A stretch of DNA of 64,000 nucleotides from Bacilli bacterium. GTDB taxonomy: Bacteria > Bacillota_I > Bacilli_A > RF39 > UBA660. This document shows, one piece after another, positions 27,137-51,940 of the stretch; position 1 is the stretch's first letter, and every line of letters begins with the position of its first letter. Under the pieces are notes generated by a model. That model had not been told where the DNA came from and did no database searches. It was given only the letters and a program-made list of their open reading frames with translations. The position numbers and the translations under genes are program-made. The stretch lies in contig JBJEEA010000004.1 of assembly GCA_051872635.1 (NCBI GenBank), positions 12,739 through 76,738 of the forward strand. Direction: 5' to 3'.

Positions 27137-28236
27137 TTATTGAACTATTAGAATCTGACCGATACTAAGTAGATTAGAAGATAGGTTATTGAGCTCTTTT
27201 AATTTATCAACTGTTGTATTATATTTTCGAGCTATAGAGTAGAGACTATCACCACTTTTAACGGTATAGGTAGTTTCCAAACTAGCTTCTTTTGGTATTT
27301 TTAACACTTGGCCGATACTTAACAAGTTGGATTGCAAGTTATTTTCACTTTTAATAGCATCAACAGTTGTGTTATATTCCCTAGCAATGGAATATAAGGA
27401 ATCTCCACTTTTTACCGTATAAGTAATTGTTGTGGTAGTTTCACTAGCAGTAGGTAATTTTAGTACTTGACCGATGGATAAAATATTACTAGTAAGATTA
27501 TTTGCTTCTTTTAAGGCATCAACAGTTGTGTTGAATTTTTTAGAAATTGAATAGAGAGAATCGCCTTTTTGAACAGTATATGTTTCTTCTGGAATTAAAG
27601 GGCTTTGCAATTTAAGTAACTGTCCAATTTGAAGAGTATTGCTAGTGAGATTATTTAATTCTTTTATAGTATCAACAGTTGTATTGTTGTCTCTAGCTAT
27701 GGAATATAAAGTATCTCCGGCTTTTACGATATAAATATTTTCTTCTCCCTCATAGACTTCTTCAGTAGGTATTTTTAGTACTTGACCGATACTGAGTGAT
27801 GAACTAGTTAAATTATTTAATTTAGTTAGCTCTTGTACTGTAGTTCCAAGTTTATTGGCAATGCTATATAGGGTATCACCCTTTTGGACGATATAGGTAT
27901 TAGATGTTATTCCTTCAGGAGAAGTGTATGGGACACCAGCATAATTTGCTACTGCTGAAATTACAGCCTCTGCTAGTTGTTGGTAGTTATTATTTAGAAA
28001 ATTTACATCTTTGGCATTATCAATAAAACCATATTCGACAATTATTGGTTGAGTATTACCAGTATTTCTATGTATAAAGTAGTAATCTTTAGAAGTATCA
28101 CTAGGAAGTCTTCTCTGATAGTATTTTCTGGTAGTCTGTCCTGTAGCGCCAATATTGTTTAGGACGTTTTTGGCGAGGGTATCTGAATTTCTAAGGGCAT
28201 AGATTACTTCAGCACCTTCGCCACCTCCGGAGTTTA
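27137..28236 (-). CDS. 3' part of split N-acetylmuramoyl-L-alanine amidase (Amidase_3 C-terminal half + 5 LysM domains)
   Basis: Manual translation from 28235: NSGGGEGAEVIYALRNSDTLAKNVL...IIVEYGFIDNAKD... then five LysM repeats (YIVQKGD, YIVKAGD, YTVQKGD, YTVKSGD x2). No stops. The first in-frame start codon is TTG 27610 and an in-frame TAA lies just upstream of the junction. Confidence 0.93.
28221..28236. repeat. attR core: 16-bp direct repeat CCACCTCCGGAGTTTA
   Basis: Identical to 40693-40708. Confidence 0.95.
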
Positions 28237-28299
28237 GTTACCGCTGTTAATTATTTACTTTTGTTCCACATTGTTCCGTTTGCGGTATAAAAGTAATTC

Positions 28300-29703
28300 T
28301 TATATCATTATATTGCATCTAAACAATTCGTTAATTACATGTTTTATTTTATCATCATCTACTCCATAATACTTAAGTTGCATAATATATATAACATATT
28401 CTAAATAAATTAAATCAAGTAAAGATAATCCTATAAATTCTTGATCTATGTCTCCGTGTGCAAAATGATTTCTTTGCGTTGATAATCTATTTCCCATTTT
28501 AGTATAATTTAGTTTTTCACCATTTAAACTATATAAGTGATTACCAAATATATCAGAAATATCACTATAATCTTTCCCATATTGAACTATACTAGATTTT
28601 AAACTATCTGTTTTTATTAATTTTTTCAAAAACTTAAATATTTCTTTCGTCTTTCCAGAATTATTATTTATTAAATTTTCAATTTTGTTTGTTACATTTT
28701 GTTCAGCTATTATCGTTTTTTCACTTTTTTTAATACCGTTAGGATAATTTCTTTTAAATTCCCATTCAAATCCAGCTGTTATCATCACAAATCTTCCTGC
28801 ATTAATTCTTCTTCCAGATTCATATGTATCTGGGATATGTTCAAAATAAATACTTTTACTGTTTATGTCATTCATAATATTACCCATAGCACCTTTTATA
28901 TATTCATATTTTATAAATTTACCTTTTTCTAATGGATACAATTCTACATCACTTTCGTTATCTTCGCTTTTATACAACGTTGCAAAATGTTGATGTAACC
29001 CATTATCGGCCGGAGCAGATATTTCAACACTCGTAAAAATAATATTTCTTCTATAACACAAATATTGTACAAATTTCTTTGTTAATTCCAGTAATTTAAT
29101 AATAAATTCATAATTATTAGTAGGTTCAAACTCTAAATATAAAGTAGAATTCATATTTAAAGGGGCTTCTCCTATTTTATAACTACTAGATATAGAAATA
29201 CCGAAATACATATAAATTTCCGTATCATCTATTTTAAACATTTCTTTATCAGTTGTAGTTTCTCTAAATGGGCGCGTATCAACACCTAAAGTTCCATCTT
29301 CTCCCCACTTTAATTTATTTAATGCTATAGTCGTTGGATATATATAATTTATTTCTGGTCCTTTGATAGCAATTCTGTCTATTGTTTCTTTTCTTAATTT
29401 ATTTATTATAAAATATTTCACATTAACTATCAGTACAGAATTTATTCTTCCAACATCGTATGTATCTGGAATAAAAATAATATTGTTTCCAGTTTCATTA
29501 CATGTCCCAACTAAAGTTTCCTCAATATACAAAGGTTCACCTAAAGTGTATATACCTGTTTCTAATTTCTTCATAAACCATCGTTCAATCGTTTCTTTTT
29601 CTTCTTTTGGCGGTATTAATTTCAATTTTTTCTTATCAAACACAAAAGTAAAATCTATATCTCTATATTTTAAACTTCCAGTATAAATTTCTAATTCTTT
29701 CAT
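28300..29703 (-). CDS. ApeA-like N-terminal domain + HEPN RNase protein
   Basis: C-terminal RLSTQRNHFAHGD (R-x4-H HEPN motif) after a ~300-aa beta-rich N-terminal region; architecture resembles ApeA-type proteins. Confidence 0.7.
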   Translation of the reverse strand: MKELEIYTGSLKYRDIDFTFVFDKKKLKLIPPKEEKETIERWFMKKLETGIYTLGEPLYIEETLVGTCNETGNNIIFIPDTYDVGRINSVLIVNVKYFIINKLRKETIDRIAIKGPEINYIYPTTIALNKLKWGEDGTLGVDTRPFRETTTDKEMFKIDDTEIYMYFGISISSSYKIGEAPLNMNSTLYLEFEPTNNYEFIIKLLELTKKFVQYLCYRRNIIFTSVEISAPADNGLHQHFATLYKSEDNESDVELYPLEKGKFIKYEYIKGAMGNIMNDINSKSIYFEHIPDTYESGRRINAGRFVMITAGFEWEFKRNYPNGIKKSEKTIIAEQNVTNKIENLINNNSGKTKEIFKFLKKLIKTDSLKSSIVQYGKDYSDISDIFGNHLYSLNGEKLNYTKMGNRLSTQRNHFAHGDIDQEFIGLSLLDLIYLEYVIYIMQLKYYGVDDDKIKHVINELFRCNIMI

Positions 29704-29735
29704 ATAATTTCTCCTTATGGCTAATTATTATAACA

Positions 29736-31397
29736 TTAATCTTTCTTTTTGCCAATTCTTCCATAATGATTTCTAACTAAATTCCTATTTTCATATATAA
29801 AATTAATTTTTGGTATTACATTATACTTAAACATAATGGTTATATTTCTATTTTCATCAATTACTATTTTATCTATTAATGTATTAATTAATTCTTTTTT
29901 AGTTTTCTTTAAATCTAACAGCTCTTTTATCTTTTTAGTATAATCTGGTAGTATATTTGTTTTATTCTTTATATTTTGTTTTTTTAATTTTTCTTCTTCT
30001 ATTATGCTATTAATTTTTTTGAGTTTAATTTCTGATTCTGTAGATAATTCTTTATATAATTGAGTCGAAATAACATTATTATATCTATCATTATATAATG
30101 TTGATAATTTATTCATGATTTGTTCTTTTTCTTTTAATAAATCATTTATTTTTTTATCTATATCTTCTGTTTCTCTATGAACATTTTTTTGTACTTCTTT
30201 ATTTAATTCTTCTACATCTAACTCTTTTATAAATGTTGATACTGAATTATTAAATTGTTCTAGTATTTGTTCTTCTAAATAATCATATGGATAAAAATGT
30301 GAACTACATCTTCCTCTCTTTGGATCTCTAGAATATTTATTACAATTAATTGACCAGTAATCAAGTTTCTTTCTGTAATAAACAGATAATCTATTACCAC
30401 ACTCTTTACAAAATATTTTACCTTCTAAAATTCTTTTTGGTCTTTCTGTTTTTAAACTATAATTTCTAGTTTTTCTTTTTCCTAAAGATTTAATATATTT
30501 AAAAGTTTCTTTATCCACTAAAGGTTCATGAGTATCTTCAACTATTACCCATAAACTTTCATCTAAAGTTATTTTCTTCTTTGATTTATAATTTACTTTT
30601 GTTTGAGTGTGCTGAACCATATCGCCAGTATAAATTCTATTACTTAAAATTTTCTTTACTGTTGATATATTCCAACTATCTCTATCAATCAATCTAGAAG
30701 AATAATTAGTTTTCTTATATCCTGCTGGTGTAGGTGCATTCATATCATTTAATCTTGTTGCTATTTCTGTTGGTCCTATTCCCTCTGCTCTCCAATTAAA
30801 TATTTTTTTTACAATTGGTGCAGTTTCTAGATTAGGTATTAAATGTCCTTTATCTAATGGATCTCTCATATAACCATAACATGGCTGACTTCCTATAAAT
30901 TTACCATTCTTTCTTTTATCATTTAATACATTTCTTATCTTTATAGAATTTTGTTTACTATAATAATCATTACAAGCAATTATAAATGTTGAAGAATCAT
31001 TACTAGCTTGATTTTTAAAACTATCATATGATTCAAGTATAGATATAAATCTTATATTATTCTCAGGAAAAAATGTTTCAATATAATACCCTGTCATAAC
31101 ATGATCTCTACCAAATCTAGATAAATCTTTAACAACTACGCAATTAATCTTTTTTTGTTTTATATCTTCTAACATTTTTTGAAATCCAGGTCTATCAAAA
31201 TTAGTTCCAGAATATCCATCATCTATATATTCTCCACACAGATTAAAATTATTATTTTTAACATAACTTCTTAGTAATTCTTTTTGATTAATAACACTTT
31301 CACTATCAGATTCATATTTTTTATCTTTATCTTCTTGAGATAATCTTATATAGATTCCAACATTGAAATCCATTTCAGTTAAGTAAGTATTATACAT
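29736..31397 (-). CDS. Large serine recombinase (resolvase + recombinase + Zn-ribbon + coiled coil)
   Basis: GIYIRLSQED (catalytic Ser), DDGYSGTNFDRPGF, VVKDLSRFGR, PCYGY, and Zn ribbon CKECG...CNKY...C. Confidence 0.96.
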   Translation of the reverse strand: MYNTYLTEMDFNVGIYIRLSQEDKDKKYESDSESVINQKELLRSYVKNNNFNLCGEYIDDGYSGTNFDRPGFQKMLEDIKQKKINCVVVKDLSRFGRDHVMTGYYIETFFPENNIRFISILESYDSFKNQASNDSSTFIIACNDYYSKQNSIKIRNVLNDKRKNGKFIGSQPCYGYMRDPLDKGHLIPNLETAPIVKKIFNWRAEGIGPTEIATRLNDMNAPTPAGYKKTNYSSRLIDRDSWNISTVKKILSNRIYTGDMVQHTQTKVNYKSKKKITLDESLWVIVEDTHEPLVDKETFKYIKSLGKRKTRNYSLKTERPKRILEGKIFCKECGNRLSVYYRKKLDYWSINCNKYSRDPKRGRCSSHFYPYDYLEEQILEQFNNSVSTFIKELDVEELNKEVQKNVHRETEDIDKKINDLLKEKEQIMNKLSTLYNDRYNNVISTQLYKELSTESEIKLKKINSIIEEEKLKKQNIKNKTNILPDYTKKIKELLDLKKTKKELINTLIDKIVIDENRNITIMFKYNVIPKINFIYENRNLVRNHYGRIGKKKD

Positions 31398-31466
31398 TCA
31401 ATCCTCCTTTTCTTCTTACTTGACTGAGTATTAAGACAATTTAATAATACCGCATTATTAAAAAAA

Positions 31467-31550
31467 TTACAGCGCATTATTTTCTTTTTCTATCTCTTCG
31501 ATAAGATATTTTAAAATAAGATCTTTAAAAGTTATATTATTTTCATTCAT
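31467..31550 (-). CDS. 27-aa micro-ORF upstream of the recombinase
   Basis: Manual: MNENNITFKDLILKYLIEEIEKENNAL*, preceded by AGGTG RBS. Confidence 0.5.
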   Translation of the reverse strand: MNENNITFKDLILKYLIEEIEKENNAL

Positions 31551-31664
31551 AGCAACACCTACTTAAAGTTATGTTGTTTTTATTTATTTTATTATTGTTT
31601 AAATCCATTTTATATTCCCCCTTTTATTCAATAAAAAAATCCCTATATTATTTTGATATAAGGA

Positions 31665-31832
31665 TTATTCTTCGTTTATAACTGAATCAATATTTTTTAT
31701 AATATATTCTATTAATAAAGTTTCCATTATAGATTGTATTGTAACTTTTTTGTTTTCTATCACTCTTTTAAGAGCCATTTTTTTATGGTCGTCAATTCTA
31801 AATTTAACTTGATTATTTTTTGCTAAAGCCAT
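31665..31832 (-). CDS. 55-aa ribbon-helix-helix-like DNA-binding protein
   Basis: Manual: MALAKNNQVKFRIDDHKKMALKRVIENKKVTIQSIMETLLIEYIIKNIDSVINEE*; RBS GAGAGGAG; beta-strand VKFRID followed by two helices. Confidence 0.65.
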   Translation of the reverse strand: MALAKNNQVKFRIDDHKKMALKRVIENKKVTIQSIMETLLIEYIIKNIDSVINEE

Positions 31833-32185
31833 TTTTCACTCTCCTCTCTAAAAAATTGGTCCCAAAGTATGCACGTTAATTTTTAAACACTATTTTAAGA
31901 AAAGGATTTTGATAAAGCAGGATAAACCTGTTTACAAACAACTCACCAGTGGTGAGTTTTACCTTATTTTATAAGTATTTATAAAATTAATTAGTGTTTA
32001 CACTTTTAATATTTGTTATACAATTGTATACTTTTGATTCCTTATATTATAAGGTATGTTATACAATCGTACACATTTTTTAAAATAACTTACTAAGGTT
32101 TTTGGTACTAAAAAAATATAAAAATACAATTAACACTTAGTACCAAACTTTTTATATTGAATTTAAAGGGGGATTTTTGAATATG

Positions 32186-32258
32186 AAAAAAAAGCACTGA
32201 CCTTTTCTGTAAGATCAATGCCATAAATACATCTAATTGCATTATTATTTCATATTCT
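32186..32258 (-). ncRNA. Candidate ~70-nt small RNA or attenuated leader inside the element
   Basis: TTGACT-N16-TACAAT promoter with TG extension (32264-32291), then GCATTGATCTT/AAGGTCAGTGC hairpin + T8; no ORF within. Confidence 0.35.
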
Positions 32259-32426
32259 ACTATATTGTATCACATGATTGTTGAAAGTCAATTAGTAATT
32301 AATGTCGTATCTATATGGATAAAAATGTTGTACAAAATCTTTCTAAACACTTATAAATACTACATTTCAGTAAATAGATACTTTAATAGTTTTTATATTA
32401 TCGACACATATATATAAATTTTTTAA

Positions 32427-33392
32427 TTATTTTTTAAATACAAGTTCCCTATGATAATATAAATATGCTTCACGCCCCTCGGTAGGAAGCATTCTTATTT
32501 TTTTGCCATTAAATATATCGAGTCTTTTTTGATTCATCGGTGAAATCCAAGGGGATACTAACATAGTTCCATCATTTTCAAAAGATATAAAACCTCTATC
32601 AAATAATTTATCATATGTTGGAGTTAACATAAATCCATTTTTTGGATCCGTCTTTTCAAAATTAGTAGATTTAGCCCACGGTTTTATATGAGATGCTATT
32701 AATAATCTTTCATCATTTACCATTGTTATTGGACAATAAGGACATTCATCTAATAATTTTTCTCTATATTTTCCTTGTCCAACACGAGATTTAATAATAC
32801 TTTCTCTTTCTGATGTAGTAATGTTTTCATCTTCTTCAATTTCAGCAATTTCTTCTTCATACAATAATTCTTTATTATATTCTACAAAAGGTCTAAAATA
32901 ATATAATAACTCTTCATCCTTCTGTAATTTTAAAATAGCCACATAAGAGATGTTAGGCAAAGAAATTTCTCTAATTAAATCATATGCAAGAGAGCGTGAA
33001 TTAATATAAATTCTAGGTGGTTTAACGTCTACCCTATAAATATTAAAATATAAAAAATCTTCCTCAAGATTATAAATTTTGTCATAATGATTAGAGAAAA
33101 TTTGAGGCATATTCGCTTTGTTTCTATATTCTTGATCAGGTCTTTTATATTCGTTTTCACTATCCATTAAATAACTAATTAAATCCTCTTTTTTTATAAC
33201 ACATTTTCCATCAAAATTTTCAAAGAAATCTAAAGTAGAACCATCTGTAGTTTGACCGACATAAAGTTTTGCTTCTCCATGGCCTGTACCGATTTTATTT
33301 GAATCTTTTACAAAACAATCAGGAATAGTAATACATTCTTTAGCGTCCAACACATTATATTCTGCTCCATCAATAATTATTTTATTATTCAT
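32427..33392 (-). CDS. HNH endonuclease (putative restriction enzyme)
   Basis: SRVGQGKYR..LL...CPIT...LIASHIKPW...NGFMLTPTYDKLFDRGFISF; overlaps the end of the methylase gene. Confidence 0.88.
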   Translation of the reverse strand: MNNKIIIDGAEYNVLDAKECITIPDCFVKDSNKIGTGHGEAKLYVGQTTDGSTLDFFENFDGKCVIKKEDLISYLMDSENEYKRPDQEYRNKANMPQIFSNHYDKIYNLEEDFLYFNIYRVDVKPPRIYINSRSLAYDLIREISLPNISYVAILKLQKDEELLYYFRPFVEYNKELLYEEEIAEIEEDENITTSERESIIKSRVGQGKYREKLLDECPYCPITMVNDERLLIASHIKPWAKSTNFEKTDPKNGFMLTPTYDKLFDRGFISFENDGTMLVSPWISPMNQKRLDIFNGKKIRMLPTEGREAYLYYHRELVFKK

Positions 33393-34599
33393 TTTCTTCA
33401 CCACCAAACATTGAAAGATCTAATTGTTTTAGTATCTCAATGAAATTATTAGATACAATACTATTACCAGCTTGTTTATACATCTGTGTATCACTAACAA
33501 CAATTTTAAATCTATCATCAAACCCCATTAATCTTAAGCACTCCCTAGGAGTCAACTTTCTAATTCTATTGTCTTTAGATATATAGTTATCAACACCTGC
33601 TCGATGCATTTTTCCCATTGTAGATAATAATGGTCTAGCTATATCTAAATCTATTTCGGGTTTAGAATAAAAATTTTTAGTCCCAGTTTTCATCACATAC
33701 TCTGTAACCTTATCTGATAAAAAATATTTATTATCAACTTCTTTTGGTCCTTCACAAATAAAATCACCATGCCAATTAAATTGTTGATTTGCTTTTTCAC
33801 ATAAAGCAATATCTCCATTAATTTGAGTAAATCTTTTTTGTAAATTTTTTTGATTTGTAACAAATGCTATCCCCTTATCATTCAAATAATATTTGGAATC
33901 TGGATTATCTTCTAATAAATCCTTCATAGTAATATCTAATTTCATAGGTTTAGGGAACGAAAATTTCACAGAATGATCCTTAAATCCTATAACAAATAAT
34001 CTTTCTCTATTTTGAGGTATACCATAATCTTTAGAATTCATTATTTGCTTATGTATTTTATATCCAAGTTTTTCAAATTCTTTTTGTATTTTCTCCCAAG
34101 TTTTACCACCATCATGATTTAATAGACCTTTTACATTCTCATATATAAACACTTTTGGTTTAATTTCATCTACTAATCTACAAAATTGAAATATAAGTAA
34201 TCCTCTAGCATCTTCTAGTCCTTTTCTCTTTCCAACCATAGAAAAAGATTGACATGGGCTACCACCAACAAATAAATCAACTTTATCTTTATAATCTGTA
34301 CCATCTAGTAATTTTATATCTAAATGAAAATCATCTTCATTTAGATCATAATTTGCCATATAACTTTTTTTTACATAATTTTGCTTTGAACTTTGTGATG
34401 AATATAATTCATCTACATACTTTTTTTTCTCTAGTTTAGATTTCATTTTCTTTATTTTATTTAATTCTTTTTCTTCATCATATTCAACAGGAATATCCCC
34501 ATTATCACAAGCAAATACAATTTGATGTGGAATTTCTAATCTATCTAAAGCATGTTCTATAGAACCAATGCCACTAAATACTGTTGCTACACGTATCAT
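33385..34599 (-). CDS. DNA (cytosine-5)-methyltransferase
   Basis: FSGIG (motif I), GGSPCQSFS (IV), ENVKG (VI), PQNRERLFVIG (VIII), RKLTPRECLRLMGF (IX), YKQAGNSI (X). Confidence 0.95.
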   Translation of the reverse strand: MIRVATVFSGIGSIEHALDRLEIPHQIVFACDNGDIPVEYDEEKELNKIKKMKSKLEKKKYVDELYSSQSSKQNYVKKSYMANYDLNEDDFHLDIKLLDGTDYKDKVDLFVGGSPCQSFSMVGKRKGLEDARGLLIFQFCRLVDEIKPKVFIYENVKGLLNHDGGKTWEKIQKEFEKLGYKIHKQIMNSKDYGIPQNRERLFVIGFKDHSVKFSFPKPMKLDITMKDLLEDNPDSKYYLNDKGIAFVTNQKNLQKRFTQINGDIALCEKANQQFNWHGDFICEGPKEVDNKYFLSDKVTEYVMKTGTKNFYSKPEIDLDIARPLLSTMGKMHRAGVDNYISKDNRIRKLTPRECLRLMGFDDRFKIVVSDTQMYKQAGNSIVSNNFIEILKQLDLSMFGGEENE

Positions 34600-34707
34600 A
34601 ATTACCTCCTTTTAAAACAACATAAATCTATGTTGATAACTGTATAACATAATTATAACATATAAAATTTTAAAAGTCTGGCATAAATCTAAATCTTTAG
34701 CAAAATT

Positions 34708-35628
34708 TTATAATTCTTTAGGACAATTAAATTTGTATTTAACATCATTAAATCCATATACCTTTTTGCAATCATGACAAATAACAGCTATAAAATCAGC
34801 ACCATTAATTCTATGTCCATCTCCCTTTTGTATTAAAATATTTTTAGAATTACATTTAGGACAAAATACTTCTTTTCCCATCACTTCATTTTGACTATAA
34901 GCATCTCTTACTATTTCATAACCATTTCTATCATACTTAGGATAAAATTCGTCTTTATTAAATATTTTAATTCTTCCAAACATAAACTCTAATTTATCAA
35001 TTTGTTTTTCAGTATGATAATGTCCACAATACCATTTATCATAATCTATAGATTGCTCTATTTTATCTAAAAACTTTTCCATACTTTTATCTACATGAGA
35101 TTGATCAATACCTTTTATAAATACTTCGGTAGGTTCATACTTTAATGGACAAGTATGTGATAAAACAATATCGATATGTTGTCCTTTATATTTATTTAAA
35201 ATATTATCAATTTCTTCTTTGCTAAGTTGTTCATCTTTAAACCATGGATGACCATATATTATTCTATAATTTTTATCAACGGAATAAGCACCACCAATTA
35301 CTAATACTTTTTTATTATCTATATCATACAATTCGCCATTTTTAGCAAATATTAAATTCGGATATTCTTCTTCAATAAATACTTTACCACCAAACATATC
35401 AATTTCTTTATATGTTAATATATTTTCCGGTCTTTCTTCATGATTACCTTGAACACAAAATAATTTTATATCATAACTATTTAATTGTTCTTTTAACATT
35501 TTATCTCTTTCATCTAAATAGTAATTAATTCCGGCATCACCTAATATAATTAACATATTACTTTTATTTTTTTCTATATCACGTAATCTATAAAATTCTC
35601 TATGCGTATCTCCTGTAATATAAATCAT
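34708..35628 (-). CDS. Calcineurin-like metallophosphoesterase with C-terminal Zn-ribbon
   Basis: ITGDTH, ILGDAG, VQGNHE, VLSHTCP and WYCGHYH; C-terminal CPKC...CHDC; start at ATG 35628. Confidence 0.88.
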   Translation of the reverse strand: MIYITGDTHREFYRLRDIEKNKSNMLIILGDAGINYYLDERDKMLKEQLNSYDIKLFCVQGNHEERPENILTYKEIDMFGGKVFIEEEYPNLIFAKNGELYDIDNKKVLVIGGAYSVDKNYRIIYGHPWFKDEQLSKEEIDNILNKYKGQHIDIVLSHTCPLKYEPTEVFIKGIDQSHVDKSMEKFLDKIEQSIDYDKWYCGHYHTEKQIDKLEFMFGRIKIFNKDEFYPKYDRNGYEIVRDAYSQNEVMGKEVFCPKCNSKNILIQKGDGHRINGADFIAVICHDCKKVYGFNDVKYKFNCPKEL

Positions 35629-35647
35629 TTTATCAACTCCTATAATA

Positions 35648-38600
35648 CTATCTTTTATTACAATGATATATAAATAATATATTCCCAAAATTTATATATG
35701 TTTTTTTGATAATTCTTTTAATTTTTACAAAATATATTTTCATTAAAACTTTGGATTCAATTTTGTTTTTTAAATAACTTACAAAATTACATTTGGATAT
35801 TTCAAGTATTCTATACTTCAAATTTCTATCAGCTAATCCTTCTCCGTAATCTTGAATTAAATTAGCATTATACCTATAAACTTTATCAGATTCTATTATT
35901 GCTATCCCTCTAAAATTAGGGATTAATATAGACTTTAATTCATCATTTATTCTAGTTCCAGTAACTTCTTCAATAGCAGTTCTTGAAATATTCATTTCAA
36001 ACTTTAAAATGTTTTTTTCTTTATATACACAATAGTTCATGAATCCTTGATAATTTAACCTCAAAATATTTTTATACATTTTTAAAAAATCTAGTAAATA
36101 TTTTATTGAATTACCATCTGATTTTTCCAAATAAACAATTTTATTTAAATTAATTTTTTTTAATTCAAATAATTTGATTAAAATTACTTCATTAATTATG
36201 GACAAATTATTATTTTTTTTAGAATACATTAACTTTATTAAAAAATAGTTCAATAAAATGTCATTTTTATCAAATGTTGACATATCCCATATTTTATTAA
36301 ATATTTTATAGTTTGGCAATCTTGAAAAATATATATTTACAACATTTTTATAAACTTTTTCTAATTCATTATCCTCCAATAGATATTTATAAAATTTACC
36401 TGATTTTCTTCCTATGTTAGGATTTAAATCATTTACTATATATTTTTTTAAAATCAATTTCGCTTTAGTTGGAGAAATTTCTAATGCTTTTTCGTAAATT
36501 TCATCATAATACATGTTTGAAACATTTCCCAAACTTTTATAGTATATGCCCACTAAAAGTTCAACTACAAGGTCACTATTTAAACTATTGTAATTAAAAT
36601 TATTCCTATTTAAAATATTGTAAATATAATTTAATTCATATGAATTTTCAATTTTTATGAAAGAATCATATATTATCTGTGGATTATCTAACTTTTTTAA
36701 ATTTTCTATAAAATTTTCATATTCTATAGACCTACAATCTACATGACTTTCATTAATATCATTTATCATTTCAACAAATGAGTTATATTTTAAAGAATTA
36801 GTATAATATTTTTCTGAATCATAAGTATTTAAATTAGATGGTTTTTCAATATATTTTAATATGGTTTTTTTCTTTTTAAAATTTTCTTCTATTATATTAT
36901 AATTCAAATTACTATGATTAGTTTTCAAAGTTTCTAAAACATTATTTTTAATAAAGGCATACTCTCTTTTATTAGAAAATTTTATACATGCTTTCAAAGG
37001 AGTTTGATTATCAGAAAATTGATATTCAACATTCATATTCATGAATTTCCAATAATTATATATTACTTTTAATTTTCTACTTTCTTTAGTATTTATATTA
37101 TCATATAAACTATAAAATAATTCATCACAATCCCTAATATAAAAATCCAACATTTCTAATGAACTAAAAAATACATTCATCGCATCAATAGCCGACACTT
37201 TTTCAGAGTATATTTTTATTAATTCATTAGGTATAAACCATACATCTTTTGCTCTATCCATTCTATCTATCGCATTATATGCAATAATAACTAATTGCAT
37301 AAATTTATCCAAACTTATTTGATTTGATGAAATTAATTTATATAAAATATCCTTTAATTCCCAAATTTGAATATCTCTATAACTTCCATAACTAAACATG
37401 CAATTTATTATATTATCAAAATAAATCTCAAAATTGTAACCGGAAATTAAACCCAAAATATAATTAGTTAAGTTATTCTCAAATTCTGATATATTACTCT
37501 GTTGATATTCAGTAGTTATTAATAAAGACTTTAAACAAGTTTCTGATAAAATTACTGAATACTGTTTAACATTACTGATTATTTGTGAATAAATAGTACC
37601 TAATAGAGAAACAATTCCATCATGATAGTTTTTTCCATTTCTTTCATTTAATATTTTTTGTTTAAAATGCATAAATTCTTCTATGATAAAATCTTTATTC
37701 TTACTTAAAACTATTAATCTACCAAGAAAATTTAATTCATCATTACTATATGCAGTGATATACCCTTCAAAATTCAATTTGTCAAAATTATAATTATTAA
37801 AAATTTTAATAAAATCTTCATCATTAGAATCATCTTTAATTAATAACTGTATAAACTCACATATAAACTTATATACCAATGGTGCTCCTGAAAAATAATC
37901 ATTCCAAGAAGAAATTATTGTATCTATAGTTTCTAAATCATTATTAAAAACATAGTTAATAAGTAATAATAAATTTTTGGTGGAAGAAATATATATTTCT
38001 TCAGTTATTATGTTATTTAATTCTTCTGTACTATATTTTTTTGTTATAGGAATAAGTATATTTTTTTCATAAAATATTTTAATAAAGTTATCACTTTTTC
38101 TTTTTAATAAATCATCTACAATTTTATATATTTTAGAATTAACATCCATGTTATTATTCGTTGATGATAAATCTAATATATTTTTATATTTCAAATATTC
38201 AAAAATAAGTATAATGCTATCTGGTGAATTTATAACATTTAACCTATTAATTTTTAATATTTTATTTTTTTCATAACTATTAAAATACTGATTGATAATT
38301 TCTTCATAATTCATTTCAAACTTGTTTCTTAAAAGAAAAACAATTATTTTTTGCATATATTCCCACTGTTGTTCAAAATTAGAATATTTAGAAAATCTTT
38401 TACTATAAATTAATTTTCTTATCAAATCATATTTTCCCAAATAAAATAACATATATATATAATTTTCAAATATATTTATATCAAAGTCATAGATGAAGGT
38501 ACTATAAATATCATGAAAATGTTCAAAATAATATAGCATTTGAAAATCTTGCTTTATTTGATAAATTTTATAATTATTTGATATAAAAGTATATACTTCA

Positions 38601-40504
38601 TTTTCAGAATAACCATTATTTATAATTGCTAACTTAATTTTTTCATAATCAAAATATTCATTATATTCTTCAATTTTATTTTTTTCTAATACTAATGAAG
38701 GATAATAATTAAATTTTTTTGGATTCATATACAAATCTTTTACTTTAAACCATCTCAAAACGTCATTTAATAGTTTATCTATATTTACTTTTTCAAATTC
38801 TAAAATATATCTTCTTAAACTTTCATGGAAAATAATATATTCATCTTTTTCATTCTTTAATAAGACATTTATAATACACTTAAATTCTTTTTCTATTTCA
38901 CTCTTTGAAACAGATGATATTTCATGTAATTCATTTATTGAAATTGGAAATTTAATAAGCGAAAAGTATAAATAAATATGAAATTGTTGTCCTTTAAAAA
39001 TTAAATCATAATACTCATTTAAATTTGTAATATTTTTTTCAAATACATTACCATTTATTATATAGTCAATTAACATATATTTTAATAATAATGGATTCCC
39101 ACTACTTTTTTCAAAAAAATCAATTTTATCTAAATCATCCAAATCGAAATTATAATTTTCAGAATATAATTTTACAAGTTCCTGAACTTGTAATTTATTT
39201 AAGTTACCTAATTCATATTTATTTTTTATGGGCATATTGTCTAATACTTGTGACAAAACAACAATTTTTATTTGTGGATTATTATTAGAAAACATTATTA
39301 TCTCATTTAATAATTCGTTAAGTTGAATATTGCTTGTTGATCTCTCACGCACAATATGATCTAATCCATCAATTATTATATAATGTTCATGTTTATCATC
39401 AATTAAGGTCAAATCACTCATTTTAAGATTAAATAAATTTATATTATAACCATGAAGCTTTTGTAAATTATAATTAAATGTAGTTATAAAACAATATTTA
39501 TTTAATCTAGTTTCAGCATATTCATCATCTAAATTAAAATAAAAATAATATGAACTGTTTTTTATATTTATACTTTCTAAATATTCTGAAAACTCTTTGG
39601 AAAACCAACTTTTTCCAACACCAGGCGCACCATAAACATGAAGTAAATTATTATCTTTTAACATTTCTAAAATATTTTCAATGTCTTGTTTTCTAGAAAT
39701 ATATTTATCTTTATCAATAATTAATTCATTATTAATTGGTATTGTATAATTAAATAATTTTATATTATTTAACCATTTTTCAGCTATTTCAGCAATTTTA
39801 ATCTTCTTATAATCATCTTCCGCTCTATATTCTCTAATTGTTTCTAACATATCTTTATAGATTACAGTTACAGGAATATTTGATATATCTCCAATGGCAT
39901 TTTCTATTTGCTCTATTACCACTTCTTTAATACTATTATCAACAACAGAATTACTGGTTATCTCAAAAGTAAAATTTTCTAAAAAATGTCTAATATCTTC
40001 TTTAGACAAATCTGAATAATCAATTTTTGAGTTTGGATTTTTTGATATCCTTTTTTCAAAAAAAAGTTCTATCATTTCTTTATTAATATTAAATTTATAT
40101 CTATTAGAATCTTTAAAAAATGATTCATCCTCAATTTTTGTAATCCATTTAGAAAGTTCATCCGATATATTCATTTCTTTCAAACTAATAATAAGACATA
40201 ATTCACTATCTTTATTATTTTTGTGACTTTTAACAAATTGATAAATGCTAAAATCTCCACTATAATTTGAAAAGTCATTCAAGTCTAATATTGTTTTCAT
40301 TTCCCTATATTTTATCTGAATTTCCTTAATATTGTCATTATTAATTATTTTCAAATCATCGAATTTATCAAAATTATTTTTCTTTTTATCTAGCACAACT
40401 TCCGTTAATACTTCATTACCACATAATAATTTATAAATTTCTCTAAATATAATATAAGACGTAAATGCATCTTGAAATATATATCCTCTTTCTTTATAAT
40501 TCAT
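35648..40504 (-). CDS. Nuclease-STAND (NACHT-like) ATPase, Avs-like candidate
   Basis: N-terminal GYIFQD...FDDL...EIQIK (PD-(D/E)xK, Cap4-like); Walker A YGAPGVGKS; Walker B IIIDGLDH; SSGNPLLLKY; over 1000 aa of helical C-terminal region. Confidence 0.78.
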   Translation of the reverse strand: MNYKERGYIFQDAFTSYIIFREIYKLLCGNEVLTEVVLDKKKNNFDKFDDLKIINNDNIKEIQIKYREMKTILDLNDFSNYSGDFSIYQFVKSHKNNKDSELCLIISLKEMNISDELSKWITKIEDESFFKDSNRYKFNINKEMIELFFEKRISKNPNSKIDYSDLSKEDIRHFLENFTFEITSNSVVDNSIKEVVIEQIENAIGDISNIPVTVIYKDMLETIREYRAEDDYKKIKIAEIAEKWLNNIKLFNYTIPINNELIIDKDKYISRKQDIENILEMLKDNNLLHVYGAPGVGKSWFSKEFSEYLESINIKNSSYYFYFNLDDEYAETRLNKYCFITTFNYNLQKLHGYNINLFNLKMSDLTLIDDKHEHYIIIDGLDHIVRERSTSNIQLNELLNEIIMFSNNNPQIKIVVLSQVLDNMPIKNKYELGNLNKLQVQELVKLYSENYNFDLDDLDKIDFFEKSSGNPLLLKYMLIDYIINGNVFEKNITNLNEYYDLIFKGQQFHIYLYFSLIKFPISINELHEISSVSKSEIEKEFKCIINVLLKNEKDEYIIFHESLRRYILEFEKVNIDKLLNDVLRWFKVKDLYMNPKKFNYYPSLVLEKNKIEEYNEYFDYEKIKLAIINNGYSENEVYTFISNNYKIYQIKQDFQMLYYFEHFHDIYSTFIYDFDINIFENYIYMLFYLGKYDLIRKLIYSKRFSKYSNFEQQWEYMQKIIVFLLRNKFEMNYEEIINQYFNSYEKNKILKINRLNVINSPDSIILIFEYLKYKNILDLSSTNNNMDVNSKIYKIVDDLLKRKSDNFIKIFYEKNILIPITKKYSTEELNNIITEEIYISSTKNLLLLINYVFNNDLETIDTIISSWNDYFSGAPLVYKFICEFIQLLIKDDSNDEDFIKIFNNYNFDKLNFEGYITAYSNDELNFLGRLIVLSKNKDFIIEEFMHFKQKILNERNGKNYHDGIVSLLGTIYSQIISNVKQYSVILSETCLKSLLITTEYQQSNISEFENNLTNYILGLISGYNFEIYFDNIINCMFSYGSYRDIQIWELKDILYKLISSNQISLDKFMQLVIIAYNAIDRMDRAKDVWFIPNELIKIYSEKVSAIDAMNVFFSSLEMLDFYIRDCDELFYSLYDNINTKESRKLKVIYNYWKFMNMNVEYQFSDNQTPLKACIKFSNKREYAFIKNNVLETLKTNHSNLNYNIIEENFKKKKTILKYIEKPSNLNTYDSEKYYTNSLKYNSFVEMINDINESHVDCRSIEYENFIENLKKLDNPQIIYDSFIKIENSYELNYIYNILNRNNFNYNSLNSDLVVELLVGIYYKSLGNVSNMYYDEIYEKALEISPTKAKLILKKYIVNDLNPNIGRKSGKFYKYLLEDNELEKVYKNVVNIYFSRLPNYKIFNKIWDMSTFDKNDILLNYFLIKLMYSKKNNNLSIINEVILIKLFELKKINLNKIVYLEKSDGNSIKYLLDFLKMYKNILRLNYQGFMNYCVYKEKNILKFEMNISRTAIEEVTGTRINDELKSILIPNFRGIAIIESDKVYRYNANLIQDYGEGLADRNLKYRILEISKCNFVSYLKNKIESKVLMKIYFVKIKRIIKKTYINFGNILFIYHCNKR

Positions 40505-40652
40505 AAACAATCACCACTACTTCTAAAAAAGAGCAATATTAACCCTAAATCCAAGATTAAATACTGCTCATCTCTTTTATAATTATAACATATATTCCCA
40601 CTGTTTTTTAATTTTATCTATATTTTATAAACAAAACTTAAATTTACTCATC

Positions 40653-40976
40653 TTAATACCCAATCAAATCTTTGTAGTGGTAACTGAACTCCCCACCTCC
40701 GGAGTTTACGTGATTAGATATTACTATCACATCACTAGAGTTACCAAACTTTGATAAGATACTATTTACCCTATCTGTGGGAGATAAAGTTATATCTTCT
40801 TCTCTTGTTATAGCAACTGGCACGCCTAGTTCTTTAAATCTATCATACATATATTTTGATATTAATAAATTATAATCTTTTTCTAGCATGTTATTACCTA
40901 CTGCTCCTGAATCAGTTCCACCATGTCCTGGATCTATAACTACTTTTTTTGTTGCTCTATCTTCATTATTATTCAT
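40653..40976 (-). CDS. 5' part of split N-acetylmuramoyl-L-alanine amidase (truncated by the element)
   Basis: MNNNEDRATKKVVIDPGHGG...LEKDYNL...TREED..LSPTDRV...ISNHVNSGGG, then 11 element-derived residues (EFSYHYKDLIG-Y*). Confidence 0.93.
   Translation of the reverse strand: MNNNEDRATKKVVIDPGHGGTDSGAVGNNMLEKDYNLLISKYMYDRFKELGVPVAITREEDITLSPTDRVNSILSKFGNSSDVIVISNHVNSGGGEFSYHYKDLIGY
40693..40708. repeat. attL core: 16-bp direct repeat CCACCTCCGGAGTTTA
   Basis: Identical to 28221-28236. Confidence 0.95.
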
Positions 40977-40993
40977 AATAATCACCTTCAAAG

Positions 40994-41021
40994 TAGTATA
41001 TGTAATTATTAGAATTTGGTT
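40994..41021 (-). promoter_or_regulatory. Sigma-K-like promoter of the amidase gene
   Basis: Minus strand: AAC C...; AC-N16-CATATACTA matches the B. subtilis sigma-K consensus AC-N16-18-CATAnnnTA, directly before the GAAGGTG RBS. Confidence 0.45.
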
Positions 41022-41056: not shown

Positions 41057-41653
41057 CTAAGATGTTTTTAATACATCATATATAATTTTTCTAATTTCTT
41101 CAATTCTATTATCAAATTCTGGATGTTCTTTAAACCATTTAATATTTAATGGTGATGGATGAGGTAGTACTATAGTTAATTTATCATTTATGTAATTATT
41201 TTTAAATATTAACTCATTAAAATTTTCTTTAGGAAAGAATACTTTAGCAACCTTAGCCCCAATTATAATATATAATTCATTATTTATATATTGTAATTCT
41301 TTTTTTAGCTATTTTTCATAGCATATTTTAGGAGGTATTCTGTCATTACCTTTTTCATCTTTACCTGGGTAACAATGTGAAAGGGCCGCTATATAAAAGT
41401 TGTTAGGATTATAAAAGATATCATCAGTTATCTTATACCACTCATATTTTAATTTTTTACCACTTTGATCAGTAAATGGTTTTAATGTTTCATGTACTGT
41501 TTTTGATGGTGCCTGACTAATTTGAACTATTTTAGAATTGATATTTCCTAAAAATATGGGATGTGGTTTAAAGCCAAATTTATCTTGACAAATAGTACAA
41601 TTTTGAATTTTATGTATTAATTTTTTAAAGTCTTTATTCATATAAGTTACCAT
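41057..41653 (-). pseudogene. Uracil-DNA-glycosylase-superfamily protein (family 4-like) with one in-frame nonsense codon
   Basis: CTICQ...ISQAP...HCYPGK...CYEK*LKKEL: TAG at 41309-41311 where Trp is expected. The frame continues to LPHPSPLNIKWF and TAG at 41057. Confidence 0.8.
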
Positions 41654-42065: not shown

Positions 42066-42137
42066 TCTTATTGTATCATTTTATACAAGAAATATAAAAC
42101 TATCTTATCCTATATTGGCATTTTTGGTCAACCGTTT

Positions 42138-51828: not shown

Positions 51829-51940
51829 ACCGGAGAGAAATCTTGTCAGGTCGATAGCTCAATGTTGATTTTTTTAAATTAAGTGTACTTTTGAGTACAC
51901 CACTTGAGTTGGGAGGAGACTTATGTCTCCTTTCTTTTTT
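51829..51940 (+). ncRNA. Candidate structured ncRNA convergent with the DUF3800 gene
   Basis: TTGACT-N17-TATTAT promoter (51794-51822); multi-helix fold; AGGAGAC-TTAT-GTCTCCT + T-run terminator; no ORF. Confidence 0.65.

What the first reader, a model, noticed from the sequence alone, without database searches (positions are those of the whole stretch)
27137..40976. Skin-like element: a cell-wall amidase-LysM gene split by a 12.5-kb serine-recombinase island that excision would restore
Seen in the sequence: the amidase N-terminal half (40976 down to 40693) ends at ...SNHVNSGGG. The C-terminal half plus 5 LysM domains (28236 down to 27137) begins at NSGGGEGAEVIY. Both junctions share the exact 16-mer CCACCTCCGGAGTTTA. 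Deleting 12,472 bp between the repeats joins 284 + 1084 nt = 456 codons, a stop-free 455-aa protein with all four Amidase_3 catalytic positions (GHGG, LEK, NH, VE). Neither half shows decay, and the 3' half has no usable start until the third LysM domain, so the full enzyme requires excision. Established knowledge: large serine recombinases excise elements from sporulation genes in the mother cell (skin in sigK, SPbeta in spsM, and elements in gerE, spoVFB and spoVR). Inference: this is a developmentally gated element in a target class (autolysin) that I do not recognise from those examples, in a lineage where such elements are little studied.
Basis: partly seen in the sequence, partly recalled or inferred. 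Interest (0 to 1): 0.93.

Follow-up and report, generated by a model that had tools for sequence, protein, structure and literature searches.

The report
Recombinase defence island splitting sporulation amidase
A 12.5-kb mobile block of anti-phage genes with its own serine recombinase sits inside a cell-wall amidase gene of an uncultured gut bacterium (order RF39). The amidase carries a spore mother-cell type promoter, and dozens of related species have the same insertion at the same codon. The block is therefore probably cut out during spore formation to rebuild the gene, but excision itself was not observed.

Summary
An exact 16-nt direct repeat flanks 12,472 bp, and removing that stretch rebuilds a stop-free 455-aa Amidase_3 + 5xLysM gene.

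- **Element:** it encodes a large serine recombinase (LSR), small ORFs next to it, and defence cargo (a type II R-M pair, a STAND NTPase, a weak HEPN candidate).
- **Empty site:** a 98%-identical intact allele exists in another metagenome.
- **Recurrence:** 76 loci with LSRs 59-100% identical have the amidase C-half starting at the same Gly codon. All 27 loci holding both halves, this window included, rebuild a complete ORF.
- **Cargo:** only the LSR is shared by all 22 distinct elements.
- **Promoter:** amidase orthologues carry a conserved AC-N16-CATAnnnTA motif. In the control ORFs that motif otherwise marks almost only CwlJ/SleB-like and CotJB genes.
- **Host:** RF39 is predicted in the literature to sporulate.
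- **Selection:** split alleles show the same purifying-selection signature as intact ones.

Best reading (about 0.6): a skin/gin-type gene-intervening element in a new target, a late mother-cell amidase.

Limits:
- Excision, its timing and the directionality factor are untested.
- No sporulation-type promoter was found on the LSR.
- The elements spread horizontally.
- This scan has met the same phenomenon in 36 or more other genomes.

The parts
40994..41020 (-). Candidate mother-cell (sigma-K/sigma-E type) promoter of the amidase. AC lies at 41020-41019, followed by 16 nt and then CATATACTA at 41002-40994. The RBS AAGGTGA is at 40988-40982.
   Evidence: Sequence read. Of 76 unique orthologous upstream regions, 60 carry CATAnnnTA 23-30 nt before the ATG, and 92% of those have C at position -17. 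Among 1,117 control ORFs the full motif marks 32 amidase orthologues, 3 Hydrolase_2 (CwlJ/SleB-like) genes, 1 CotJB gene and 1 NrtR/Nudix gene.
40693..40976 (-). Amidase N-terminal half (codons 1-94 plus part of codon 95). It carries GHGG, LEK and the SNHVN zinc-site motif. In the occupied state the ORF runs on to a stop at 40653.
   Evidence: tblastn gives 100% identity over residues 1-96.
40693..40708 (.). attL core: the 16-nt direct repeat, TAAACTCCGGAGGTGG on the gene strand.
35648..40510 (-). Cargo: a 1,620-aa STAND-type P-loop NTPase, a candidate defence sensor.
   Evidence: Pfam NPHP3_N at E 1.4e-10, with weak nSTAND6 and AAA_22 hits. No PADLOC or NCBIfam hit.
34708..35688 (-). Cargo: a 326-aa calcineurin-like metallophosphoesterase.
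   Evidence: Pfam Metallophos at E 6e-11. The cluster is shared by 4 of 22 elements.
33385..34599 (-). Cargo: a C5 cytosine DNA methyltransferase (type II R-M).
   Evidence: Pfam DNA_methylase at E 4e-72. PADLOC MTase_II at E 7e-79. NCBIfam dcm at 258 bits.
32427..33407 (-). Cargo: an HNH restriction endonuclease, partner of the methylase. The two genes overlap by 23 nt.
   Evidence: Pfam HNH_2 at E 1e-11. PADLOC HNH and type II REase at E 5e-27.
31665..31832 (-). A 55-aa ribbon-helix-helix-like protein, a candidate regulator.
   Evidence: Weak RelB/RHH hit at E 0.003, below the family cut-off. It is conserved at about 270 nt upstream of the LSR in the clade with 92-95% LSR identity.
31543..31608 (-). 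Micro-ORF a, 21 aa (MDLNNNKINKNNITLSRCCYE). It overlaps the start of micro-ORF b by 8 nt.
   Evidence: Its N-I-x-L motif is conserved and is fused in frame with micro-ORF b in the clades with 59-62% LSR identity.
31467..31550 (-). Micro-ORF b, 27 aa (MNENNITFKDLILKYLIEEIEKENNAL), a candidate recombination directionality factor or LSR regulator.
   Evidence: The motif F-K-D-L-I-L-x-Y-L-I-E-E-I lies within 260 nt upstream of the LSR in 71 of 77 loci. Variable sites by codon position are 10, 2 and 13, a coding pattern.
29736..31397 (-). Large serine recombinase, 553 aa.
   Evidence: Pfam Resolvase, Recombinase and Zn_ribbon_recom, all above their cut-offs. More than 120 protein clusters at 82-95% identity.
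28300..29703 (-). Cargo: a 467-aa protein of unknown family with an Rx4H motif (RNHFAH), a weak ApeA-like HEPN candidate.
   Evidence: Only sub-threshold Pfam hits: HEPN_Apea and HEPN_MAE_28990 at E about 0.01. Nothing in PADLOC or NCBIfam.
28221..28236 (.). attR core: the second copy of the 16-nt repeat. The inferred crossover dinucleotide is the GG of GGA|GGT.
   Evidence: The dyad centre of the rebuilt attP falls on this GG, with 17 of 25 positions complementary. Across the LSR clades the shared in-register core shrinks to GG or GGT.
27137..28236 (-). Amidase C-terminal half: the rest of the catalytic domain, including the VE glutamate, plus five LysM domains.
   Evidence: It is 98.2% identical in DNA to the intact allele in L001.

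Best explanation
This is a gene-intervening element of the skin/SPbeta/gin kind in a new target gene.

Shown. A 12.5-kb non-phage cassette has integrated by serine-recombinase crossover at a GG dinucleotide inside the Gly-Gly-Gly codons that follow the SNHxN active-site motif of a conserved Amidase_3-LysM gene. The cassette carries an LSR, micro-ORFs and interchangeable defence genes.

Inferred. The amidase has no signal peptide and carries a sigma-K/sigma-E-type promoter, so it most likely acts late in the spore mother cell, as CwlC does in B. subtilis (mother-cell wall lysis). In vegetative cells and in the forespore the element stays integrated, and its defence cargo is inherited. In the terminally differentiated mother cell the LSR, helped by a small directionality factor, recombines attL with attR and releases a circle. 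The conserved micro-ORF(s) just upstream of the LSR are the best candidates for that factor. Excision rebuilds the 455-aa amidase gene exactly. Because the mother-cell genome is discarded, excision costs the lineage nothing. That would explain why this site is a tolerated docking place for a whole family of horizontally moving LSR cassettes.
For: - Architecture: exact 16-nt repeat and in-frame, stop-free rejoining. LSR with all three defining domains. The rebuilt attP has dyad symmetry centred on GG within the repeat.
- Empty site: the intact 455-aa allele P0001/L001 runs straight across the junction.
- Recurrence: 76 loci with LSRs of 59-100% identity have the C-half starting at the same codon. 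All 27 split loci with both halves, this window included, rebuild a complete ORF.
- Selection: lineage-specific changes are 27 nonsynonymous to 141 synonymous in split alleles and 134 to 793 in intact ones (Fisher p = 0.56). The neutral expectation is 3.46:1.
- Sporulation link: AC-N16-CATAnnnTA sits at a fixed distance before the amidase ATG in 52-60 of 76 unique orthologues, with C at -17 in 92%. Among 1,117 control ORFs the full motif otherwise marks 3 Hydrolase_2 (CwlJ/SleB-like) genes, 1 CotJB gene and 1 other. Among 2,304 ORFs of the occupied loci it marks only amidase N-halves and CwlJ-like genes.
- Host: RF39 is predicted to sporulate (PMC10868615).
- Precedent: gin in gerE is a non-phage element with R-M cargo, an LSR and a 42-aa directionality factor (PMC5595907).
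- Directionality-factor candidate: a micro-ORF is co-conserved with the LSR in 71 of 77 loci.
Against: - Excision was never observed. The sample behind the window is not in the run index, and only assembled contigs were available.
- No sigma-K/E-type motif lies before the LSR, the micro-ORFs or any cargo gene. LSR upstream regions look sigma-A-like by eye.
- LSR divergence and host amidase divergence are uncorrelated (Mantel r = 0.02). Insertions may therefore be recent, which weakens both the intact-halves argument and the selection argument.
- In one species the split allele is a minority: about 25 member sequences against about 580 intact.
- Sporulation in RF39 is a genomic prediction, not an observation.
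- I could not check this genome for spo0A, sigE, sigK or a second copy of the amidase.
Confidence: 0.6

Rival explanations
1. Plain gene-disrupting integration. A mobile LSR defence island uses a conserved DNA motif in the amidase gene only because it is a widely available attB. The amidase is knocked out. The loss is tolerated because the enzyme is dispensable or redundant, or because the defence cargo outweighs the cost. Excision occurs only for horizontal transfer.
For: The elements spread horizontally, with no co-divergence between LSR and host gene. The split allele is a minority in the one species sampled. No sporulation promoter was found on the LSR or the micro-ORFs. One C-half, in L142, is cut to 127 aa where its siblings have 327 aa, which may be decay. 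An earlier unchecked note reports another Amidase_3 gene in this genome.
Against: All 27 split genes rebuild intact ORFs. Split alleles show the same low N:S ratio as intact ones. At least five or six LSR/attP types, with LSRs as low as 59% identical, have kept the same crossover dinucleotide in a gene carrying a mother-cell promoter motif. Per the cited papers, the previously tested LSR elements in mother-cell genes (skin, SPbeta, vfbin, gin) excise during sporulation.
Confidence: 0.27
2. A reversible switch unrelated to sporulation, in the manner of 'active lysogeny'. The element would excise and reintegrate in response to stress, growth phase or phage attack, so that amidase activity toggles in a subpopulation of vegetative cells.
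For: The LSR upstream regions look like ordinary sigma-A promoters followed by a conserved leader. A small RHH-like regulator sits upstream. The yin element in yabG excises in a growth-phase-dependent, heterogeneous way (PMC10747680).
Against: The amidase has no signal peptide. Its promoter motif is shared with CwlJ/SleB-like and CotJB genes, not with housekeeping genes. Rebuilding the gene in vegetative cells would therefore not obviously lead to its expression or export. The LSR leader fold in this window is no better than shuffled sequence (z = +0.4).
Confidence: 0.1
3. Assembly or binning artefact: a chimeric contig joins two amidase fragments around unrelated DNA.
For: The window comes from a metagenome-assembled genome, and its source reads could not be examined.
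Against: The same split at the same codon, with LSR-type att structure, recurs in dozens of independent assemblies from ENA, Logan, JGI and NCBI, including contigs of 0.5-1.2 Mb.
Confidence: 0.01

Closest known systems
gin element in gerE of Bacillus cereus ATCC 10987 (GirC LSR plus the 42-aa directionality factor GirX; PMC5595907)
   Same: Both are non-phage cassettes with restriction-modification cargo. Both split a mother-cell gene at a short core repeat. In both, an LSR and a very small element-encoded protein are the (candidate) excision machinery. Both are polymorphic among strains.
   Different: gin is 28.6 kb, carries three recombinases, targets a transcription factor and is known in a few B. 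cereus-group strains. Here the target is a cell-wall amidase. There is a single LSR. The family spans dozens of uncultured RF39 species with several attP types and almost wholly exchangeable defence cargo. Excision and directionality-factor function are shown for gin and untested here.
skin element in sigK (B. subtilis SpoIVCA/Skr; C. difficile CD1231/CD1234)
   Same: An LSR-bounded element inside a late mother-cell gene, with in-frame restoration by excision. The element is kept in the germ line and lost only from the mother cell.
   Different: skin interrupts the sigma factor itself, so its excision is a regulatory checkpoint, and it is a decayed prophage. Here the target is a terminal effector enzyme that presumably lies downstream of that sigma factor, and the cargo is defence systems.
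SPbeta prophage in spsM (SprA/SprB) of B. subtilis
   Same: A mobile, horizontally transmissible element that also acts as a sporulation-excised intervening element. As I recall, the core repeat is also 16 bp.
   Different: SPbeta is a 134-kb active phage. Its directionality factor SprB has a demonstrated sigma-E/K-dependent promoter. No such promoter was found here.
CwlC / CwlH, sigma-K-dependent mother-cell lysis amidases of B. subtilis (comparison for the target gene; from my own knowledge)
   Same: An N-terminal Amidase_3 catalytic domain, no signal peptide, C-terminal peptidoglycan-binding repeats and a late mother-cell type promoter.
   Different: CwlC binds the wall through SPOR-type repeats, whereas this protein has five LysM domains. 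Orthology is not shown: the best NCBIfam hit is CwlD at 84 bits against a cut-off of 221.55.
XisF / fdxN element of Anabaena heterocysts
   Same: A developmentally programmed LSR excision that rebuilds a gene in a terminally differentiated cell. XisF is among the best NCBIfam hits for this LSR, at 88.9 bits.
   Different: The hit is far below the XisF cut-off of 375 bits. The phylum, target gene and helper factors (XisH and XisI) all differ.

Membership tests
Large serine recombinase (LSR) | N-terminal resolvase catalytic domain, followed by a Recombinase domain and a zinc beta-ribbon domain | tested here: met
   PF00239 at E 3e-22, PF07508 at E 3e-23 and PF13408 at E 1e-10, all above their curated cut-offs. 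The nucleophile context reads YIRLSQED in the sequence.
Large serine recombinase (LSR) | att sites with imperfect dyad symmetry around a central, non-palindromic crossover dinucleotide shared by attL and attR | tested here: met
   The rebuilt attP is GGTAACTAAACTCC-GGAGGTGG-GGAGTTCAGTTACC, with 17 of 25 positions complementary and the centre on GG. GG or GGT is the only core shared in register by all the LSR clades.
Sporulation gene-intervening element (skin / SPbeta / vfbin / vrin / gin / yin class) | The element interrupts a coding sequence, and precise site-specific excision restores an intact frame | tested here: met
   An intact allele is 98% identical. All 27 split loci with both halves, this window included, rebuild a complete ORF.
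Sporulation gene-intervening element (skin / SPbeta / vfbin / vrin / gin / yin class) | The interrupted gene is a sporulation gene expressed in the mother cell | tested here: inconclusive
   A conserved AC-N16-CATAnnnTA motif is shared almost only with CwlJ/SleB-like and CotJB genes, and the protein has no signal peptide. This is comparative inference only. There are no expression data, and the sigma factor that reads the motif is unknown in RF39.
Sporulation gene-intervening element (skin / SPbeta / vfbin / vrin / gin / yin class) | The host is an endospore former | not testable with these tools
The literature predicts that RF39 can sporulate from its gene content (PMC10868615). The 64-kb window holds no recognisable sporulation gene.
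Sporulation gene-intervening element (skin / SPbeta / vfbin / vrin / gin / yin class) | Excision occurs specifically during sporulation, in the mother cell | not testable with these tools
   The window's own sample is not indexed (best share of words 0.35), and all runs were held as assembled contigs. No attB or attP joint was seen.
Sporulation gene-intervening element (skin / SPbeta / vfbin / vrin / gin / yin class) | An element-encoded recombination directionality factor, under sporulation control, works with the LSR | tested here: inconclusive
   A candidate micro-ORF is co-conserved with the LSR in 71 of 77 loci and varies in a coding pattern. Its function is untested, and no sigma-K/E-type motif lies before it.
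Amidase_3 (N-acetylmuramoyl-L-alanine amidase) | A complete catalytic domain with the zinc ligands and the catalytic glutamate | tested here: met
   This holds only after rejoining. PF01520 then covers residues 12-186 against profile positions 1-173 of 174. The N-half carries GHGG, LEK and NH, and the C-half carries VE.
CwlD (spore cortex amidase) equivalog TIGR02883 | Score at or above the curated equivalog cut-off | tested here: not met
   84 bits against a cut-off of 221.55. The protein is a general Amidase_3, not CwlD.
Anti-phage defence island | The cargo matches known defence-system protein families | tested here: met
   In the window, a type II MTase and an HNH REase hit PADLOC. The STAND NTPase is supported by Pfam only and the HEPN candidate is weak. 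In sister elements PADLOC finds type I REase, type II and IIG MTases, HamB (Hachiman) and PtuA-like ATPases. HamA, MutH and Bpu10I appear in the gene tables.

The most novel reading that the evidence does not exclude
In a whole order of uncultured, genome-reduced gut spore-formers, one late mother-cell amidase gene may serve as a common 'germline-safe' docking site for a guild of horizontally exchanged LSR cassettes. Together these cassettes would form a hypervariable anti-phage gene pool that is inherited through the spore and deleted only in the discarded mother cell. Excision would be driven by a directionality factor of only about 27-40 aa. That factor is encoded as one micro-ORF in some clades and as two overlapping micro-ORFs in others, and it would be smaller than the 42-aa GirX, the smallest such factor I found described.
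Probability: 0.4. Interest if true: 0.85.

Novelty: new variant of a known kind. Interest (0 to 1): 0.7.

Why it matters
If excision in the mother cell is confirmed, three things follow.

1. A cell-wall lytic enzyme joins the short list of genes rebuilt by programmed DNA rearrangement during sporulation (sigK, spsM, spoVFB, spoVR, gerE, yabG). The phenomenon would also extend to RF39, an abundant but uncultured gut lineage whose ability to sporulate is so far only predicted.
2. It would show a general way to carry defence islands at no fitness cost: park them in a gene needed only by a cell that is about to die.
3. The family offers many natural LSR/attB/attP sets that share one target but differ in their attP arms, each with a very small candidate directionality factor. 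Such sets are useful raw material for recombinase tools.

Within this scan the phenomenon is recurrent. It has been noted in 36 or more other genomes, so this window adds a well-preserved instance rather than a first sighting.

Tried and rejected
- **Read-level search for attB and attP.** Four run searches found no run holding the window's junctions; the best shares of words were 0.25-0.35. A sister element, L092, was held at 0.72-0.84. All runs were available only as Logan contigs. Three read-laying runs gave noisy AT-rich cross-matches and no joint at the att sites.
- **Exact 24-mer attL/attP pattern in metagenome contigs.** No hits.
- **My initial prior that RF39 does not sporulate.** Dropped after reading PMC10868615.
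- **Vertical co-divergence of LSR and amidase.** This would have dated the insertions. It was rejected (Mantel r = 0.02, p about 0.27).
- **Sporulation-type promoter before the LSR or micro-ORFs.** None was found under the criterion that works for the amidase. A conserved CATAAATTTAA block upstream of the micro-ORF first looked like a -10 element. It is better explained as coding sequence for an (N/D)-I-N-L motif, which is in frame in the clades where the ORFs are fused.
- **Circular contigs.** No locus shows terminal overlaps.
It is not significant in this window (z = +0.4) and only modest across the family (median z about -1; 16 of 56 below -1.64).
- **Longest-common-substring joining of halves.** This failed wherever the cores are short. 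I replaced it with in-register joining anchored on NHxN and EVIY.


Full report
**1. The observation**

- CCACCTCCGGAGTTTA occurs exactly twice in the window, at 28221-28236 and 40693-40708. None was expected in 100 shuffles.
- On the minus strand, an ORF starting with the ATG at 40976 reads MNNNEDRATKKVVIDPGHGG...SNHVNSGGG. It then runs 13 codons into foreign sequence.
- The frame entering at 28236 reads NSGGGEGAEVIY... and continues through five LysM repeats to the stop at 27137.
- Deleting the 12,472 bp between the repeats gives a 455-aa stop-free protein: Amidase_3 over residues 12-186 (E 8e-31) and five LysM stretches (E 5e-85).
- The island is more AT-rich than its flanks, at 22.8% G+C against 25-28%.

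**2. What lies between the repeats**

All genes are on the minus strand.

- A 1,620-aa STAND-type NTPase.
- A metallophosphoesterase.
- A C5 DNA methyltransferase overlapping an HNH restriction endonuclease, which together form a type II R-M pair.
- A 55-aa RHH-like protein.
- Two overlapping micro-ORFs of 21 and 27 aa.
- A 553-aa large serine recombinase with Resolvase, Recombinase and Zn_ribbon_recom domains.
- A 467-aa protein with only weak ApeA-like HEPN similarity.

No phage structural genes and no conjugation genes are present. The element is a small, LSR-driven defence island.

**3. The att sites behave as LSR sites**

Joining the two element-side flanks gives an attP with dyad symmetry: GGTAACTAAACTCC-GGAGGTGG-GGAGTTCAGTTACC. 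Seventeen of 25 positions are complementary. The centre falls on the GG of GGA|GGT, inside the repeat.

**4. Empty sites and host**

- A search with the rejoined protein found thousands of intact relatives. The best is a 455-aa protein 98% identical over the first 200 residues (P0001).
- Its contig, L001, runs straight across the junction. The C-half DNA is 98.2% identical to the window.
- In the species-representative genomes, the 80 best loci all hold an uninterrupted gene. Their titles are 'Bacilli bacterium', 'uncultured Tenericutes', 'Clostridium sp. CAG:302', 'CAG:1000' and 'CAG:321'.
- Earlier notes on this genome name the order as RF39.
- The neighbours are housekeeping genes: NusA, RNase J, a GT8 glycosyltransferase, a UDG-family gene, an ABC-F protein, a P-type ATPase and UvrA. 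The amidase is therefore a chromosomal core gene and not a prophage endolysin.

**5. Is the lineage a spore-former?**

I began by assuming it was not. The one dedicated study (PMC10868615) concludes that RF39 retains spo0A and a reduced but coherent sporulation gene set, including spoIIGA, spoIIM, spoIIP and spoIIQ. It states that RF39 'is predicted to be capable of forming spores'.

**6. Is the amidase a sporulation gene?**

- The protein has no signal peptide or membrane segment, as read from the sequence.
- Upstream of the ATG lies AC-N16-CATATACTA, then an RBS.
- In 76 unique orthologous upstream regions, 60 carry CATAnnnTA 23-30 nt before the start codon. In those, the base 17 nt upstream of the motif's C is C in 92% of cases, in genomes of about 25% G+C. 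The three inner positions vary freely.
- From my own knowledge, this is the B. subtilis sigma-K consensus.

Controls:
- Among 1,117 ORFs of at least 120 aa in the window and 82 loci, only 37 have the full motif at that distance. Of these, 32 are amidase orthologues, 3 are Hydrolase_2 proteins (the CwlJ/SleB spore cortex-lytic family), 1 is a CotJB protein and 1 is an NrtR/Nudix regulator.
- In a second set of 2,304 ORFs from occupied loci, the motif plus an RBS marks only amidase N-halves and CwlJ-like genes.
- In many species the amidase lies tail-to-tail with that CwlJ-like gene.

The motif thus behaves as a mother-cell promoter of this lineage, and the amidase belongs to its small regulon. 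This is comparative inference, not expression data. I cannot tell sigma-E from sigma-K.

**7. The split recurs across the lineage**

- The LSR has more than 120 protein clusters at 82-95% identity, some on contigs of 0.5-1.2 Mb.
- Contigs encoding two of them show the same layout: Amidase_3 N-half, variable cargo, a small ORF, the LSR, small ORFs, then the LysM C-half.
- A metagenome scan gave 80 more loci with LSRs 59-94% identical.
- Of the 77 loci analysable (the window, L083-L089 and the scan loci), 76 have the amidase C-half beside the LSR. It nearly always begins at the same ...GGTGG(C/A)GA....
- All 27 split loci with both halves, this window included, rebuild a complete ORF of 345-470 aa when joined in register.
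- The direct repeat ranges from 16 nt here down to 3-4 nt. The only core common to all clades is GG or GGT, which matches the dyad centre.
- There are at least five or six different attP arm types. In one clade the LSR sits next to the N-half in the opposite orientation (L156, L157, L164, L169).

**8. Cargo**

- The 22 distinct elements range from 2.9 to 16.8 kb and hold 161 ORFs of at least 100 aa, which fall into 85 clusters.
- Only the LSR cluster is present in all 22 elements, and 60 clusters are singletons.
- Of the eight large cargo proteins sampled, six hit PADLOC families: a type I REase, type II and IIG-like MTases, a type II REase, HamB of Hachiman and a PtuA-like ATPase.
- The gene tables add HamA, MutH-like and Bpu10I enzymes.

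**9. Vertical or horizontal?**

- LSR distances and amidase distances are uncorrelated (Mantel r = 0.02).
- LSRs less than 8% apart sit in amidases a median of 46% apart.
- Amidases less than 10% apart carry LSRs up to 39% apart.
- The cassettes therefore move between species and replace one another at this site.
- In one human-gut species the intact 462-aa clusters hold about 580 member sequences, against 25 for the 338-aa C-half cluster. The split allele is a polymorphic minority there.
- By length and domain content, about 17 of the 120 listed clusters are C-half-only forms (my count).
- Earlier notes claim 40-50% of species are occupied. I did not verify that figure.

**10. Selection**

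- Changes specific to terminal lineages in the catalytic domain are 27 nonsynonymous to 141 synonymous for split alleles and 134 to 793 for intact alleles (Fisher p = 0.56).
- The window's gene differs from the intact L001 allele by 5 nonsynonymous and 31 synonymous single-step changes. The neutral expectation is 3.46:1.
- Split genes thus look as constrained as intact ones.
- Caveat: because the elements are mobile, part of this divergence may predate each insertion.

**11. Candidate directionality factor**

- A micro-ORF with the motif F-K-D-L-I-L-x-Y-L-I-E-E-I lies 60-90 nt upstream of the LSR in 71 of 77 loci, across all clades. Its variable sites by codon position number 10, 2 and 13, a coding pattern.
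- In the window it is 27 aa (31467-31550). A 21-aa ORF (31543-31608) precedes it and overlaps it. In the clades with 59-62% LSR identity the two are a single ORF of 37-41 aa.
- The proven directionality factor of gin, GirX, is 42 aa.
- No sporulation-type promoter motif lies before these ORFs or the LSR. The LSR upstream region looks sigma-A-like by eye.

**12. What could not be done**

Direct evidence for excision is missing. No indexed run holds the window's junctions, and all runs were available only as assembled contigs, which drop rare variants. None of the joints reported lies at the att sites. An exact attL/attP 24-mer was absent from metagenome contigs.

**13. Comparison with what is known**

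- The literature I could search lists sigK, spsM, spoVFB, spoVR, gerE, yabG and spoVK-type sites as targets of such elements. No paper combines 'gene-intervening' with 'amidase'.
- The closest case is gin in gerE: non-phage, with R-M cargo, an LSR and a tiny directionality factor.
- Three things are new here: the target class, which is a lytic enzyme rather than a regulator or spore-component gene; the host lineage; and the scale, with many LSR/attP types and near-total cargo turnover at a single dinucleotide.

**14. Relation to earlier notes of this scan**

- Notes on this genome gave me the order name and the promoter lead before my own promoter tests.
- I ran my recurrence, cargo, selection and micro-ORF analyses, except the directionality-factor literature check, without guidance from the notes on other genomes. 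I looked those notes up only.
- Those notes report the same phenomenon in 36 or more other genomes, with the same reading. They are AI notes, not independent evidence. They do mean that this window is a further instance, not a first discovery within the scan.

**15. Verdict**

| Reading | Probability |
|---|---|
| skin/gin-type intervening element excised in the mother cell to rebuild a late sporulation amidase | about 0.6 |
| Plain tolerated gene disruption | about 0.27 |
| Switch unrelated to sporulation | about 0.1 |
| Assembly artefact | about 0.01 |

Excision itself remains unobserved.

Noticed in passing
window 41069-41641 (-): The UDG-family gene just upstream of the amidase aligns over residues 1-192 with its 196-aa relative in L001, but it has an in-frame TAG where the relative has Trp (...KICYEK*LKKEL against ...KICYDKWIKKEL). 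It is either a nonsense pseudogene or a sequencing or strain error.
   Followed up: partly
window 31467-31608 (-): Two overlapping micro-ORFs of 21 and 27 aa, sharing 8 nt, lie upstream of the LSR. In the clades with 59-62% LSR identity the same two motifs (I-N-L and FKELIxxYL) sit in one ORF of 37-41 aa. The protein is therefore either split here or made through translational coupling or a frameshift.
   Followed up: partly
L141:940-3839: A minimal element of only 2.9 kb sits at the same amidase codon. It holds the micro-ORF, the LSR and about 1 kb more, with no defence cargo. This looks like the bare mobile platform.
   Followed up: partly
L085:1-1400: In this locus a second, different LSR gene (531 aa, with a DUF4368 tail) ends just upstream of a 5'-truncated amidase N-half that starts near residue 16. 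The same gene therefore appears to be hit at a second site near its 5' end.
   Followed up: partly
L156, L157, L164, L169: In one LSR clade (about 61% identity) the recombinase gene lies next to the amidase N-half and on the opposite strand. This is the reverse of the arrangement in the window.
   Followed up: partly
L142 (C-half near 13101): The C-half ORF is only 127 aa, whereas near-identical siblings (L108, L111, L113) have 327 aa. This may be a decayed copy or an assembly error, and it is the only clear exception to 'halves intact'.
   Followed up: no
L083-L089 near 14183-14669; also L039, L042, L045: A 140-142-aa Hydrolase_2 (CwlJ/SleB-like) gene lies tail-to-tail with the amidase in many species. 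It carries the same AC-N16-CATAnnnTA motif, which suggests a small spore-wall-lysis gene neighbourhood.
   Followed up: partly
window 41664-44252 compared with L001:1978-8982: The stretch upstream of the UDG gene also differs between close relatives. The window has two unknown ORFs of 133 and 704 aa. L001 has two DNA methylases, an HNH protein and an 822-aa protein. This may be a second variable (defence?) spot beside the amidase locus.
   Followed up: no
window 35635-40553 (run X28): One pig-gut run holds a 7.1-kb contig that matches the R-M and phosphoesterase part at about 98%. A joint in it skips the STAND NTPase gene, but only 21 nt support the far side, so this is weak. It hints at modular gain or loss of cargo within the same island.
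   Followed up: no
window 19512-20681 (-), 51939-52679 (-), 55622-57394 (+): Other defence- or toxin-like genes lie outside the element: a HipA_C-like kinase, a DUF3800 protein and a HerA/DUF87 ATPase.
   Followed up: no
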